The notes under the pieces were generated by a model. It did no database searches, was not told the origin of the DNA, and worked only from the letters and a program-made list of their open reading frames with translations. A program made the position numbers and the translations under genes. Shown one piece after another: positions 22,691 through 25,500 of a stretch of 64,000 nt of DNA. Origin of the DNA: Malacoraja senta (lineage: Eukaryota); NCBI GenBank assembly GCA_038087875.1, contig CM075992.1:3970001-4034000 (forward strand). The letters are read 5' to 3'. Within the stretch, counting starts at the first letter, position 1. Each line of letters opens with the position of its first letter.

Positions 22691-24124
22691 CACTGTTCAC
22701 TTACATCAGTATAAATTGTGTCTTTAATGCACAAAGTGACAGGAAACTGCAATGGTGATTTAATGGCTTCTTTAGAATTTTTTTCGTTAAAAATGATACC
22801 TACATAGTAACGCAAGAAATAAAAGCAGGAGCAGTCCATTAAAGCTCTTCAACCCTGCTTGCTGTGCTAATGATCATGGCTGGTCTTCTGCCTCGTATCC
22901 TTTCCCAACACTGGTCCAATAACCCTTGATTCCCTTCATACTTCATGCTGCCTTGACCTGCTGAGTTACTCCAGCACTTTGTATATTTTTTTGCAGGCAG
23001 AAAGGTCCTGACCTTAAATACCATGCTCTCCAGAATTGCCACCTGACCCACTGAGTTACTCCAGCATTCTGTCATTTTAACCAGCATTTGCAGTCCTTGT
23101 TTCGACATTAGTGTATGTGATATTTAATGGTCAGTAATGACAGTGGGCTGAAGTTTATAAGTGATAGGAGAAGAATTAGGCCATTCGGCCCATCAAGTCT
23201 ATGCCATTTAATCATAGGTGATCTATCTCTCCCTCCTAACCCCATTTTCCTGCCTTCTCCCCATAACCTCTGACACCCGCACTAATCAAGAATCTGTCTA
23301 TCTCTGCCTTAAAAATATCTATTGACGGCCTCCACAGCCTTCTGTGGCAATGAATTCTACAGATTCACCACCCTCTGACTAAAGAAATTCCTCCTCATCT
23401 CCTTTCTAAAGGAACGTCCTTTAATTCACCATCAAAATGATACTTAAGTGTTGCGATGATACCTGCCTCAACTACCTCCTCCTGCAGCTTGTTCCGTACA
23501 CCCGCCACCCTTTGTGTTGTGAATGAGGGATTGATGGTCAGTTTTATTCTGAGGCTGTGGCCTCTGGTCCTAGACTCTCCCACTTGTGGAAACATCTACT
23601 CCACATCCACTCCAGCCAGGCCTTTGTCCGTCCTGTTTGACTTTACACTGACCATTTCAAGAGTGTTCCCCTTGGTTCCCAAATGGGGATGTTCAATAGG
23701 AACCCAAAGTAGGATTAGGAAGGTTTGCTGATCTCCCATGGACTGTAAACACCAGATGGGCAGAATGGCCTGTTATTGTGCTGTAGTTCCTTCACGTTCA
23801 GTCTCGAACCAATGACTTCTTAGAGGGCAGGAGGATGATGGGTGATCTTAAGGGGGAGCATAAAATCATGAGAGGAATAGATCGGGTAGATTCCCCTAGA
23901 CTTGCCCAGAGTAGGGGAATCGAGGACCAGAGGACATAGGTTCAGGAGCCTGAGGGGTGACTGGGGAGTTATTTAGGGTTATGGGGAGAAGGCAGAAGAA
24001 TGGGGTTGAATGGAGGAGACTTGATGGGCCAAATGGCCTAATTCTGCTCCTATGATTTTGAGGCAGGGACTATCGCAACATTTAAGAAACAATGAGACAG
24101 GTACATGGATAGTAGACGGTAGAC

Positions 24125-24261
24125 TTCTTCTACTTTCGTGTGGCGTGCACAGCCTAAAGTTGTTGGACAACTTGTTCTATTTGATCTTCCGTTTGTGCAC
24201 GTCGAGTTGATTGCATTAGTCGAAACAGGGCGGACCACGTGAAGGTTGCAATCTTCCACCC
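24125..24261 (-). mobile_element. 137-bp retroposon with HDV-like ribozyme head, 3' stem-loop and (AAG)n tail
   Basis: Minus strand begins GGGTGGAAGATTGCAACCTTCACGTGGTCCGCCCTG and ends TGTGCACGCCACACGAAAGTAGAAGAA; flanked by agacggtagac / agaaggtagac (10 of 11 identical). Confidence 0.75.
24209..24261 (-). ncRNA. Minimal HDV/CPEB3-like self-cleaving ribozyme fold
   Basis: P1 GGGUGG/CCGCCCU, J1/2 AA, P2 GAUUGCA/UGCAAUC, P3 ACC/GGU, L3 UUCACGU, G for P1.1, minimal P4 U-UUCG-A, J4/2 CUAA with the putative catalytic C at position 24219. Confidence 0.8.
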
Positions 24262-25500
24262 AGAAGGTAGACAAAAGTGCTGGAGAAACTCAGCTGGTGC
24301 AGCAGCATCTATAGAGCGAAGGAACTAGGCAACGTTTCGGGCCGAAACCCTTGGTTTCGGCCCGAAACGTTGCCCATTTCCTTCGTCTCAGGCGGAAACC
24401 CGTCTGAAGAAGGGTTTCGGCCCGAAACGTTGCCTATTTCGTTCGCTCCATAGATGCTGCTACACCCGCTGAGTTTCTCCAGCACTTTTGTGTACCTTAT
24501 CAGCAATTATGTGGGGATGTGTCAGAAGTCAAGACCAAAGATCCTATAGCAAGATAGACCATTCTTTCTAAATGCAATGGGCTGACGTGTAGTTTCTCCA
24601 GCATTTTTGTCTACCTTCGATTTCCCAGCATCTGCAGTTCCTTCTTAAACACAGGTACATGGATAGGACAGGTTTAGAGGGATGTGGGCCAAACGCGGGC
24701 AGGTGGGACTAGTGTAGCTGGGACCTGCTGGGCCAAAGCTGTTTCCACACTGTGTATCACTCTGACTCTGTGACTCAGGGAGAGGAGAAAGCAATCTCCA
24801 TCAGAAATATTCATTAAAAAACACAATTGCCATTTTAATAATGATTACAAGGAATTCAAGTGCGAGAGTTACCTGCCGGGTAATAGCTGGGGAAGTCATG
24901 AAATTGAAGGGTGTTAATAATGACTGAAATGGAATTCACAAATTATTTAACACTTCATGAATCTTGAAGTGGCAGGAGTCACAGAGGTTAATAGCTGTGA
25001 TGTGGCTTATAATTAAGCTATTTATCTTATTCGTGGCAATTAGAATAGGAAGTCAGAGGTTCGGACCTTGCTGTGGCTACTATGAAGAGTGTTGATTTGC
25101 ATACAGCACATCTTGGTGTGGCAGCTGAATTTAATCTCCATTTACCTCTGACTCACTTGAGGGGATGTCTCGGTAATGAAGGGCGGAGAGGGGGGCAGGT
25201 AATTATGTGCGAGTAACAAGGTTAGGGCCGATGTCCCTCGCGTGCGTGCGTGCGTGCGTGTGTGCGTGCGTGTGTGTGTTGCCCCCTCCACTGCAAGTTC
25301 AGAGAAAATTCAGTCCACATTCTCCATGACACAGACTACAGCAGTGGCACAGCTGGTAGAGCTGCTGCCGCAGAGAGCTAGAGACTCCGGGCTCCACCCC
25401 GACCTCAGGTGCTGCCTATGTGGCGTTTACCCGTTTGCCCTGAGACCCCGTGGCTTTTCTCCGGGTGCTCTGGTTTCATACGACAAGAAACAGTACAGAA

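What the first reader, a model, noticed from the sequence alone, without database searches (positions are those of the whole stretch)
24125..24261. 137-bp mini-retroposon headed by a minimal HDV/CPEB3-like self-cleaving ribozyme
Seen: the minus strand reads GGGUGG-AA-GAUUGCA-ACC-UUCACGU-GGU-CCGCCCU-G-UUUCGA-CUAA-UGCAAUC. This maps in order onto the HDV-family nested double pseudoknot: P1, 7-bp P2, 3-bp P3, L3, one-pair P1.1, P4 reduced to a UUCG-capped stub, and J4/2 with the catalytic C. It is followed by a stem CGUGCACA/UGUGCACG enclosing AAGUUGU-CCA-ACAACUU, an (AAG)-like tail, and an imperfect 11-bp flanking duplication. Known: the mammalian CPEB3 ribozyme has the same L3 (UUCACGU), and HDV-like ribozymes define the 5' ends of R2, some RTE and L1Tc/ingi non-LTR elements. 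Inference: this is a non-autonomous SINE-like element that lacks a Pol III head and uses self-cleavage to excise itself from read-through transcripts, perhaps mobilised by an Ingi/Vingi-type LINE. The element starts essentially at the predicted cleavage site. This copy has three 5' Gs rather than the four needed for the G1-U wobble, so it may be impaired.
Basis: partly seen in the sequence, partly recalled or inferred. Interest (0 to 1): 0.92.

Follow-up and report, generated by a model that had tools for sequence, protein, structure and literature searches.

The report
Ribozyme-headed mini-retroposon derived from an RTE LINE
This is one copy of a very abundant 139-base mobile element that has no promoter of its own but starts exactly at the cutting site of a tiny HDV-like self-cleaving RNA fold, and it turns out to be a gutted version of a longer RTE-type jumping gene that carries the same fold, a known kind of arrangement seen here in an unusually clean and compact form.

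Summary
Window 24124-24261 (minus strand) is one copy of a retroposon with sharp ends, 9-16 bp target-site duplications and an (AAG)n tail. The genome holds at least 8,217 bodies and 4,410 heads.

Its first 54 nt map in order onto the HDV-like double pseudoknot: P1, P2, P3, L3, P1.1, a 6-nt P4 substitute and J4/2 C-N-A-A. The only Rfam families that align to it are two HDV models. Both align end to end, with G+1 on the element's first base, but far below threshold (12.6-18.8 bits).

841 of 994 copies with an exact core do. The window copy lacks G1.

The partner is not Ingi/Vingi. It is an RTE-like LINE (endonuclease plus reverse transcriptase, 3' UTR of about 20 nt, (AAG)n tail) whose own 5' end is the same ribozyme, with the first AUG inside it. 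The short element consists of the LINE 5' ~85 nt joined to the LINE 3' ~33-40 nt. That makes it a bipartite, SIDE-like non-autonomous LINE.

Self-cleavage, read-through transcription and mobilisation in trans are inferred, not shown, because no raw RNA reads were available. RTE ribozymes, R2 SIDEs and bipartite RTE-N elements are already published, so this is a new member of a known kind.

The parts
24262..24272 (-). 5' copy of the target-site duplication, GTCTACCTTCT. The T at 24262 sits where G1 of the consensus element would be.
   Evidence: locus L001 row. It matches 24124-24114 with 1 mismatch.
24209..24261 (-). Minimal HDV-like ribozyme fold, consensus positions 2-54. G1 is missing in this copy.
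   Evidence: Read directly. Rfam RF02682 aligns globally to 24209-24262 at 12.6 bits. A consensus copy scores 16.0 bits with RF02682 and 14.1 bits with RF00094, with G+1 on the first base.
24256..24261 (-). P1 5' strand GGGUGG (positions 2-7). It pairs with 24228-24233.
   Evidence: P1 is also recovered by the nested MFE fold and by both Rfam alignments.
24247..24253 (-). P2 5' strand GAUUGCA (positions 10-16). It is preceded by J1/2 AA at 24254-24255.
   Evidence: It is the perfect Watson-Crick complement of 24209-24215. This pseudoknot helix is not modelled by the Rfam models.
24234..24246 (-). P3 ACC/GGU enclosing L3 UUCACGU (positions 17-29). C22 at 24241 is the candidate P1.1 partner of G37.
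   Evidence: L3 is in the same register as in mouse Cpeb3.
24226..24233 (-). P1 3' strand CCGCCCU (positions 30-36) followed by G37 (P1.1).
   Evidence: Position 32 is G here and A in the LINE, and both pair with U5.
24216..24225 (-). UUUCGA, a 6-nt substitute for P4 (positions 38-43), then J4/2 CUAA. The candidate catalytic C44 is at 24219.
   Evidence: CUAA aligns to the model's GCUAA in both HDV models. Position 45 varies U/G among subfamilies.
24209..24215 (-). P2 3' strand UGCAAUC (positions 48-54). AUG at 24216-24214 is the first AUG of the processed RNA.
   Evidence: In the LINE this AUG is in frame with the endonuclease ORF.
24179..24208 (-). Stretch homologous to the LINE 5' region just after the ribozyme (positions 55-84). 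It includes CGUGCACA at 24194-24201.
   Evidence: Alignment of the SINE consensus to LINE 5' ends.
24157..24173 (-). Inner hairpin AAGUUGU-CCA-ACAACUU (positions 90-106).
24133..24165 (-). Stretch homologous to the last ~33 nt of the LINE: the last codons, the stop codon TAG and the whole 3' UTR (positions 98-130). It includes UGUGCACG at 24144-24151.
   Evidence: Alignment with 8 LINE 3' ends. The subfamily B and SIDE-C tails are identical to the LINE tail.
24124..24132 (-). Microsatellite tail TAG-AAG-AAG. In the consensus it is (AAG)n of variable length.
24114..24124 (-). 3' copy of the target-site duplication, GTCTACCGTCT. Its first G overlaps the tail.

Best explanation
The element is a bipartite, internally deleted derivative of an RTE-like LINE. 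It keeps only the LINE's 5' ~85 nt and its 3' ~33-40 nt plus an (AAG)n tail.

The 5' module is a 54-nt HDV-like ribozyme without P4. The proposed cycle runs as follows:
1. A copy lying in any transcribed region is co-transcribed with host RNA. It has no promoter of its own.
2. The ribozyme folds and cuts immediately 5' of G1, which sets the RNA's exact 5' end.
3. The LINE-derived 3' module and its AAG repeats are recognised in trans by the RTE endonuclease/reverse transcriptase. The enzyme nicks a T-Y|A-G type target and primes on the AAG repeats.
4. The cDNA runs to G1, so each new copy again carries a complete ribozyme.

Shown here: the fold, the copy number, the ends, the duplications, the target signature and the homology to both LINE termini.

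Inferred: catalysis, read-through transcription and mobilisation in trans.
For: 1. Fold. All elements are in the canonical order and register:
- P1 of 7 bp with G1.U36
- J1/2
- P2 of 7 Watson-Crick pairs
- P3 of 3 bp
- L3 of 7 nt
- C22-G37 (P1.1)
- J4/2 C-N-A-A abutting P2

2. Rfam. Of 4,227 Rfam families, HDV models gave the only or the best-scoring matches to the head: RF02682 alone on the window copy and the LINE or SIDE-C heads, RF02682 and RF00094 as the top two of four on a consensus copy. The other two were a 14-nt and a truncated match. The HDV alignments are global and place G+1 on the first base of the retroposon.

3. Chance control. My descriptor gave 1 hit (0 with P2 of 7 bp or more) in 147 Mb of shuffled sequence.

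4. 5' ends.
- 841 copies carry an exact GGGG plus 33 nt, against 36 with a non-G first base.
- 841 of 994 exact 32-mer cores carry GGGGU.
- In 15 of 30 sampled copies the extra G or GG lies between the duplication and GGGUGG, so it belongs to the element. Nine are ambiguous. L001, L009 and L025 lack G1, L010 has T, and two gave no duplication.
- In contigs of four other coded organisms the homology also stops at G1 or one base before it.

5. LINE partner.
- Eight LINE 3' ends end ...LDLQL*, followed by GCTGTGCACGCCATACGC(AAG)n.
- LINE 5' ends read GGGGTGGGAGATTGCAACCTTCACGTGGTCCACCCTGTTTCGACTAATGCAATC. They run straight into an ORF whose product matches Exo_endo_phos and Exo_endo_phos_2.
- The RT core matches RVT_1 at 47.5 bits.

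6. A second, independent deletion derivative (SIDE-C, loci L097 and L098) again keeps the whole ribozyme and the last ~33 nt.

7. Differences between lineages inside the ribozyme fall only at tolerant places: position 8 in J1/2, position 32 (U.G versus U-A in P1) and position 45 (the N of C-N-A-A).

8. Target signature in 38 copies:
- The maximal duplication starts with A in 26 and G in 10.
- Position -2 is T in 31.
- Position -1 is T or C in 35.
- Position -12 is T in 25.
This matches in kind the published RTE insertion signature of A at P1 and a T excess about one helical turn upstream (PMC6007223, abstract and passages).

9. Published precedent.
- Ribozyme cleavage at the 5' junction in RTE, R4 and L1Tc (PMC3774820, passages).
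- P4 is dispensable (same source).
- Bipartite RTE derivatives, and the idea that a 5' ribozyme explains why they keep the exact LINE 5' end (PMC5786205, passages).
Against: - No catalysis and no RNA 5' end was observed. All 22 listed runs are kept as contigs.
- Rfam scores of 12.6-18.8 bits are far below the gathering scores of 44 and 50, and the E-values run from 0.26 to 2.8.
- The whole-window scan at gathering thresholds found nothing.
- Covariation is almost absent. Only one paired position varies, on one side, because the family is young and nearly uniform.
- The pseudoknot-free MFE of the 54 nt is no better than shuffles (z -0.04).
- A sharp 5' end could also come from a fixed transcription start.
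- No intact, recently active partner LINE was shown. Sampled LINE copies are 88-93% alike and mostly carry stops.
- None of 74 exact LINE 3' ends has the tail of the young subfamily, CCACACGAAAG. Of the 74, 65 read CCATACGCAAG and 9 read CCACACGCAAG.
- The RTE clade is inferred from architecture and insertion signature, not from a tree.
Confidence: 0.8

Rival explanations
1. The 5' end is set by transcription initiation at G1 from an internal promoter in the first ~80 nt, as is argued for Pr77 of L1Tc/NARTc. The HDV-like fold would then be inactive or incidental.
For: A fixed start site would also give uniform 5' ends. A few copies carry extra 5' Gs: L016 has one more and L014 about eight more. 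Capped templates can produce such additions (recalled from the L1 literature). In L1Tc the same 77 nt are reported to act as both promoter and ribozyme (PMC3383444, abstract in the listing).
Against: A complete double-pseudoknot fold whose G+1 is exactly the first base is very unlikely by chance. No Pol III-type head was found. Extra Gs next to a GGGG run can also arise by slippage or untemplated addition. A promoter and a ribozyme are not mutually exclusive.
Confidence: 0.07
2. The fold is kept mainly as a structured handle rather than for cleavage. It would serve as a protein-binding or cap-independent translation element for the LINE, and the short element inherits it passively because internal deletions spare both ends.
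For: The first AUG of the LINE RNA lies inside the ribozyme (A47-G49) and is in frame with the endonuclease ORF. HDV-like ribozymes of R2 and L1Tc are reported to promote translation, and the R2 protein binds the 5' pseudoknot (PMC6765202, passages).
Against: The short element encodes no protein of its own. Yet two independent deletion lineages kept all 54 nt, and the catalytic C, the AA and G1.U are intact in every consensus. Passive inheritance does not explain why copies end at G1.
Confidence: 0.1
3. It is a DNA-level repeat (a MITE or a segmental duplicate), not a retroposon.
For: Three copies lie 2,266 bp apart on contig C2. These are a local tandem triplication.
Against: There are no terminal inverted repeats. 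The element has a variable (AAG)n tail, duplications of variable length (9-16 bp) and 5'-truncated copies with their own duplications (L068, L070). It is homologous to both ends of a LINE.
Confidence: 0.01

Closest known systems
HDV-like ribozymes at the 5' end of RTE-clade LINEs (Ruminski et al. 2011, J Biol Chem; the paper is not held, and I know it through PMC6765202, PMC5786205 and PMC3774820 and from recall)
   Same: A double-pseudoknot ribozyme forms the first nucleotides of a promoter-less RTE element. Cleavage is at the element's 5' junction, and the ORF starts at or right after the ribozyme.
   Different: Here the ribozyme has no P4 (6 nt in its place) and is only 54 nt long. The start codon lies inside J4/2-P2. 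The host genome appears to be a fish-like vertebrate; I did not determine the organism.
R2 SIDEs, short internally deleted elements (Eickbush and Eickbush 2012, PMC3414825: abstract in the listing; described in PMC3774820 and PMC6765202)
   Same: Non-autonomous elements that consist only of the LINE's 5' ribozyme and its 3' end and are mobilised in trans.
   Different: SIDEs insert site-specifically in 28S rDNA and are few. This family is dispersed genome-wide with at least 8,217 bodies and uses an RTE rather than an R2 partner.
Bipartite non-autonomous RTE derivatives such as RTE-N2_Lch (5' 214 bp plus 3' 70 bp of RTE-4_Lch) and Bov-A (Kojima 2018, PMC5786205, passages)
   Same: The same architecture: the 5' end plus the 3' end of an RTE. 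Kojima proposed that a 5' ribozyme may explain why such elements keep the exact LINE 5' end.
   Different: Here the ribozyme is mapped base by base. The 5' ends are counted against its cleavage site, and two independent deletion lineages are seen. I cannot tell whether this family is already in Repbase.
NARTc/L1Tc and RIME/ingi of trypanosomatids (PMC3383444, PMC4035085: abstracts)
   Same: A non-autonomous partner shares the LINE's first 77 nt, which carry an HDV-like ribozyme.
   Different: A different LINE clade (ingi/L1Tc), poly(A) tails, and a larger ribozyme that is also reported to be a promoter.
Mammalian CPEB3 intronic ribozyme (Rfam RF00622)
   Same: L3 is UUCACGU at positions 20-26, and P1/P3/P1' are in the same register (for mouse). 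P1.1 appears to be a single C-G pair followed by U (this detail is recalled).
   Different: The CPEB3 model gave no match at E up to 10. P1 and P2 have different sequences and there is no P4. CPEB3 is a single-copy intronic element, not a repeat.
P4-less HDV-like ribozymes: silkmoth R2, abalone, drz-Mtgn and theta ribozymes (PMC3774820, PMC10879173, passages)
   Same: P4 is replaced by a few nucleotides, and such ribozymes are active in vitro.
   Different: Theta and minimal drz sequences are reported to be almost confined to gut phages. The silkmoth R2 ribozymes have very long J1/2 loops, whereas here J1/2 is 2 nt.

Membership tests
HDV-like (delta-like) self-cleaving ribozymes | Nested double pseudoknot with strands in the order P1-P2-P3-L3-P3'-P1'-(P4)-J4/2-P2'. 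| tested here: met
   Read from the sequence. My descriptor finds the consensus copy. Both HDV Rfam models align globally.
HDV-like (delta-like) self-cleaving ribozymes | P1 of 6-7 bp that starts with G+1, paired as a G.U wobble, at the cleavage site. | tested here: met
   The consensus pairs GGGGUGG with CCGCCCU, giving G1.U36. The window copy itself lacks G1.
HDV-like (delta-like) self-cleaving ribozymes | Catalytic C in J4/2, followed by conserved A residues and abutting P2. | tested here: met
   C44-U/G-A-A is kept in the LINE and in subfamilies A, B and C. Only the second letter varies.
HDV-like (delta-like) self-cleaving ribozymes | P2 of at least 5 bp, P3 of 3 bp, and a P1.1 pair between L3 and the base after P1. 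| tested here: met
   P2 has 7 Watson-Crick pairs, P3 is ACC/GGU, and C22-G37 can pair.
HDV-like (delta-like) self-cleaving ribozymes | Score at or above Rfam's gathering threshold for an HDV-type model. | tested here: not met
   Scores of 12.6-18.8 bits against 44 (RF02682), and 14.1 against 50 (RF00094). The models omit P2 and expect a P4.
HDV-like (delta-like) self-cleaving ribozymes | Compensatory changes that support the helices. | tested here: inconclusive
   Only U5.G32 versus U5-A32 was seen, a change on one side. The copies are too alike for more.
HDV-like (delta-like) self-cleaving ribozymes | Mg2+-dependent self-scission that leaves a 5'-OH on G1. | not testable with these tools
   No raw RNA reads were available. 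This needs a bench assay.
CPEB3 ribozyme family (RF00622) | A match to the family model, and a location in the CPEB3 intron of mammals. | tested here: not met
   No RF00622 match at E up to 10. The element is a dispersed repeat. Only L3 and the register are shared.
RTE-clade LINE (the partner element) | A single ORF with an N-terminal AP-type endonuclease and a reverse transcriptase, and no separate ORF1. | tested here: inconclusive
   The endonuclease follows directly after the 5' ribozyme (these scores are below Pfam cut-offs on fragments). RVT_1 scores 47.5 bits. No intact full-length copy was read.
RTE-clade LINE (the partner element) | A very short 3' UTR ending in a microsatellite-like repeat, and an RTE-type target signature. 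| tested here: met
   About 18 nt lie between the stop codon and (AAG)n. The duplications start with A or G and there is a T excess at -12, compared with PMC6007223. That a short 3' UTR is an RTE hallmark is recalled.
RTE-clade LINE (the partner element) | Placement of the reverse transcriptase within the RTE clade on a tree. | not tested
   No named reference set was on hand. The nearest database proteins carry only generic names.
Bipartite non-autonomous LINE / SIDE | Consists of the 5' end and the 3' end of one autonomous LINE, with no ORF, and shows the LINE's insertion marks. | tested here: met
   Positions 1 to about 84 match LINE 5' ends, and positions 98-130 match LINE 3' ends. Duplications and tails were seen.
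Canonical SINE | A 5' head derived from tRNA, 7SL or 5S RNA with an internal Pol III promoter. | tested here: not met
   ARAGORN found no tRNA. Rfam found no small-RNA match over the element.

The most novel reading that the evidence does not exclude
The most novel reading is that this ribozyme belongs to the retrotransposon lineage from which the mammalian CPEB3 intronic ribozyme was exapted. The two share L3 UUCACGU and the same base-by-base register of P1, P3, L3 and P1'. Ancient RTE elements also existed in early mammals (recalled). If this reading is right, the long-open origin of the CPEB3 ribozyme, and indirectly of the HDV ribozyme, could be tested by tracing RTE 5' ends across vertebrates. 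Against it, the CPEB3 covariance model does not recognise the element, and a shared 7-nt loop could be convergence on a constrained active site.
Probability: 0.1. Interest if true: 0.7.

Novelty: new member of a known kind. Interest (0 to 1): 0.42.

Why it matters
The finding gives a clean natural example of how a mobile element can do without a promoter. Any copy that lands in transcribed DNA can trim itself to a defined 5' end and be copied again.

It also puts numbers behind Kojima's 2018 suggestion that a 5' ribozyme is why bipartite RTE derivatives keep the exact LINE 5' end. Two independent deletion lineages kept all 54 nt, and 85% of intact heads start at G1.

The ribozyme is among the smallest natural HDV-type folds in a eukaryote. 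It holds the LINE's first AUG, so it is a handy substrate for studying cleavage and cap-independent translation together.

None of this changes the known picture of HDV-like ribozymes in non-LTR elements.

Tried and rejected
- **RNA 5'-end test.** All 22 runs found are kept as contigs, none as raw reads. The contigs laid show presence and boundaries in four coded organisms. They cannot show RNA starts, and repeat boundaries break contigs in DNA as well.
- **Tail pattern with non-SINE bases upstream.** It gave 0 hits at 0 mismatches and 11 hits at 3 mismatches. I later saw that the design excludes true LINE 3' ends, because the LINE shares the 13 upstream bases with the SINE. These calls therefore say nothing about LINEs. 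They paid off only by chance, through a deleted LINE copy (L064).
- **Three copies 2,266 bp apart on C2.** This is a local tandem triplication, not a longer element.
- **LINE copy on C5 (L082).** It is truncated about 600 nt from its 3' end and sits beside a Gypsy-like element. It gave only a C-terminal protein query.
- **Search for a LINE with the young subfamily's tail.** 0 of 74 exact LINE 3' ends have it.
- **Thermodynamic folding.** The head is no better than shuffles (z -0.04), because pseudoknots are not modelled. The 3' module is only modestly better (z -1.68).
- **Earlier notes of this scan.** Nothing was on record.
- **Literature.**
  - Ruminski 2011 is not held, so its RTE examples could not be compared directly.
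  - A 19-nt string of the head is in no held paper.
  - A search joining HDV-like ribozyme with shark, skate or cartilaginous-fish terms listed nothing relevant among its top 15 of 6,535. That does not prove absence.
  - Repbase and Dfam could not be searched.
- **Not used.** Structure prediction and complex prediction were not needed.
Full report
**What is at the coordinates**

The window lies in a 1.94-Gb eukaryotic assembly.

A genome search with the region plus flanks gave 1,404 first-look candidates. Most of the 40 scored matches cover only query 30-167, which is window 24261-24124, at 98-99% identity. The ends are therefore sharp.

In 30 fetched copies the element is flanked by direct duplications and ends in (AAG)n of variable length. 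Twenty-six of the 30 have a further G in front of GGGTGG. The consensus is therefore 139 nt and starts with GGGG.

**Copy number and controls**

| Pattern | Mismatches allowed | Matches | Reversed control |
|---|---|---|---|
| 53-nt head | up to 3 | 4,410 | 0 |
| CpG-free 35-nt body stretch | up to 3 | 8,217 | 0 |

The head count also includes LINE and other subfamily heads, which differ at only 2-3 places. The excess of bodies over heads reflects faster CpG decay of the head, the longer pattern, and 5'-truncated copies. I could not separate these causes.

**The fold**

Numbering is from the consensus G1.

| Element | Positions | Sequence or pairing |
|---|---|---|
| P1 | 1-7 with 30-36 | G1.U36, three G-C, U5.G32, two G-C |
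| J1/2 | 8-9 | AA |
| P2 | 10-16 with 48-54 | GAUUGCA/UGCAAUC, seven Watson-Crick pairs |
| P3 | 17-19 with 27-29 | ACC/GGU |
| L3 | 20-26 | UUCACGU |
| P1.1 | 22 with 37 | C22-G37 |
| P4 substitute | 38-43 | UUUCGA |
| J4/2 | 44-47 | C44-U-A-A |

This is the HDV-family order of strands.

- Rfam at gathering thresholds finds nothing in the window.
- Given only the head, the sole match on the window copy is RF02682, an HDV-like ribozyme model. It scores 12.6 bits and aligns globally to 24209-24262.
- On a consensus copy the two best of four matches are RF02682 (16.0 bits, E 0.26) and RF00094 HDV_ribozyme (14.1 bits, E 2.8). The other two are a 14-nt and a truncated match. Both HDV models put G+1 on the element's first base.
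- LINE and SIDE-C heads score 17.5 and 18.8 bits.
- All of these scores are far below the thresholds of 44 and 50. The models expect a P4 and do not encode P2.
- As an independent control I wrote a permissive descriptor: G.U-started 7-bp P1, 3-bp P3, a C-G P1.1 pair, C-N-A-A, and P2 of at least 6 bp. It finds the consensus and nothing else in the window. It gave 1 hit, and none with P2 of 7 bp or more, in 147 Mb of block-shuffled sequence.
- Pseudoknot-free folding of the 54 nt is uninformative (z -0.04).

**The 5' end**

| Count | Number |
|---|---|
| Exact GGGG plus 33 nt | 841 |
| Non-G first base plus the same core | 36 (20 A, 14 T, 2 C) |
| Exact 32-mer of positions 6-37 | 994 |

So 841 of 994 intact cores (85%) carry GGGGU.

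Duplication mapping on the 30 best copies gave the following:

- In 15 copies, one G (14 copies) or GG (1 copy) lies between the duplication and GGGUGG, so it belongs to the element.
- Nine are ambiguous because the target also ends in G.
- L009, L025 and the window copy start at G2.
- L010 has T.
- L005 and L014 gave no duplication. L014 has about eight extra Gs.

In contigs of runs from four other coded organisms, the best-supported loose ends lie at G1 or one base before it.

**The window copy**

The T at 24262 is part of the 11-bp duplication.

**The partner LINE**

A pattern search meant to find tails without a SINE body hit, by luck, a LINE 3' end (L064).

*3' end.* Its 356-nt end has 491 first-look candidates, and 40 were scored at 88-100% identity, the 100% row being the query's own locus. 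Eight aligned 3' ends give an ORF ending ...DAVLAWMSTLDLQL*, then only GCTGTGCACGCCATACGC and (AAG)n. The short element's last ~33-40 nt are this sequence. In subfamily B and in SIDE-C they are identical to it. In the window's subfamily A they differ at about three places.

*Related proteins.* The C-terminal protein fragment finds proteins of 80% (a JGI sample), 74% (annotated in a deep-sea eel) and 45% identity (coelacanth).

*5' end.* Searching the genome with the eel protein led to copies that reach the 5' end. Fourteen 5' ends were then fetched, and the L085 copy was added to make 15. They read GGGGTGG-GA-GATTGCA-ACC-TTCACGT-GGT-CCACCCT-G-TTTCGA-CTAA-TGCAATC. This runs straight into an open frame, MQSTRRAQTN...LRIYQLNVEGMSRAKNEYISRSAKDLNADVLLLQETH.

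*Domains.*
- The frame matches Exo_endo_phos and Exo_endo_phos_2. The scores are below the Pfam cut-offs because the pieces are fragments.
- The RT core of another copy matches RVT_1 at 47.5 bits, above the cut-off.
- The first AUG of the processed RNA is A47-G49, inside the ribozyme, and it is in frame with the ORF.

*State of the 5' ends.* Of the 15 LINE or SIDE-C 5' ends, 7 start at G1 or G2. The others are truncated by a few to about ten bases.

**Derivatives**

- Subfamilies A and B share a middle piece that I could not align to the LINE beyond about position 84.
- SIDE-C (L097, L098, and about ten 87-nt matches) joins LINE 5' ~104 nt directly to CTACAACTTTAGG...(AAG)n.
- There are therefore at least two independent internal deletions, and both kept the whole ribozyme.
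- Consensus differences inside the ribozyme are position 8 (A/G, J1/2), position 32 (G/A, both pairing with U5) and position 45 (U/G, the N of C-N-A-A).
- In the four foreign runs, the only variants at 10% or more within the head are positions 32 and 45. Outside the head they are positions 58, 73 and 99.
- This pattern fits the fold, but it is thin evidence.

**Insertion marks**

My script found duplications in 38 of 57 distinct loci. Three of the 60 loci were duplicates, and 19 were dropped because the tail pattern or the duplication criteria failed.

- Lengths are 9-16 bp, with a mode of 11-12.
- The maximal duplication starts with A in 26 and G in 10.
- Position -2 is T in 31.
- Position -1 is T or C in 35.
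- Position -12 is T in 25.

A start overlapping the tail repeat, together with a T excess about one helical turn upstream, is what Nishiyama and Ohshima describe for RTE-related retroposons (PMC6007223, abstract and passages).

**What is known**

- HDV-like ribozymes in RTE and baggins elements, R2 SIDEs and L1Tc/NARTc are reviewed in PMC6765202 (passages).
- Eickbush et al. state that cleavage at the 5' junction is shared by the R4, L1Tc and RTE ribozymes. They also state that P4 is dispensable: it is absent in silkmoth R2 and reduced to 5 nt in an abalone ribozyme (PMC3774820, passages and section 16).
- Kojima describes bipartite non-autonomous LINEs, including RTE-N2_Lch, and suggests that the 5' ribozyme explains their intact 5' ends (PMC5786205, passages).
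- Minimal P4-less HDV-like ribozymes are active in vitro and are reported mostly from phages (PMC10879173, passages).
- The CPEB3-type L3 is borne out by a mouse primer (PMC10919898).
- The family's own sequence was not found in any held paper. Repbase and Dfam could not be checked.

**Open points**

- Catalysis and RNA ends are untested.
- No intact, young LINE was shown.
- None of 74 exact LINE 3' ends carries subfamily A's tail, so the enzyme source for the very young A copies is unknown.
- The RTE clade is inferred from architecture and insertion signature, not from a tree.

**Verdict**

The thing is a new, well-defined member of a known kind.

Noticed in passing
window 24273-24500 (hairpin at 24316-24386); loci L002, L003, L004, L006: The element sits in an older, abundant repeat. 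That repeat holds a near-perfect hairpin giving sub-threshold matches to miRNA models (mir-722, 35.9 bits against 81). Five of the 30 best copies (L001-L004, L006) are independent insertions at the same site of diverged copies of this repeat, with duplications like GTCTACCTTCG. This looks like a hot spot.
   Followed up: partly
L031 (genome C2:75440000-75449500): Three copies of the element lie 2,266 bp apart. A 2.27-kb segment is triplicated in tandem at 99.5-99.8% identity, carrying the element with it.
   Followed up: yes
L065 (short element) and L084 (LINE 5' end): In these copies the ribozyme region is inverted relative to the rest of the element. This is reminiscent of the 5' inversions made by twin priming in other LINEs.
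   Followed up: no
L014, L016, L072: There are runs of extra G at the 5' end: about eight in L014 and one in L016. L072 has a G-rich insertion inside the element. These could be untemplated addition or slippage on the GGGG start.
   Followed up: no
window 24194-24201 and 24144-24151; LINE 5' ends L086-L099 and 3' ends L074-L081: CGUGCACA just after the ribozyme and UGUGCACG in the 3' UTR are exact complements in the LINE itself, built around the palindrome GUGCAC. The two ends of the full-length LINE RNA could therefore pair. In the short element they form the outer stem. All derivatives keep both.
   Followed up: no
window 24216-24154: From the AUG inside the ribozyme, subfamily A has a 20-codon open frame (MQSTRRAQTEDQIEQVVQQL*). 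It ends at the LINE's own stop codon, in the LINE's frame. SIDE-C is not in frame, so this may be chance.
   Followed up: partly
P0001, P0002; L085: The LINE's C-terminal region is 74% identical to a protein annotated in a deep-sea eel and 80% identical to one from a JGI sample, which hints at horizontal spread of this RTE. Both the eel protein model and the L085 copy lack the RT core between the endonuclease and the C-terminal region.
   Followed up: no
L082 1824-2603 (+): A Gypsy-like reverse transcriptase/RNase H frame lies next to the truncated LINE fragment on contig C5.
   Followed up: no
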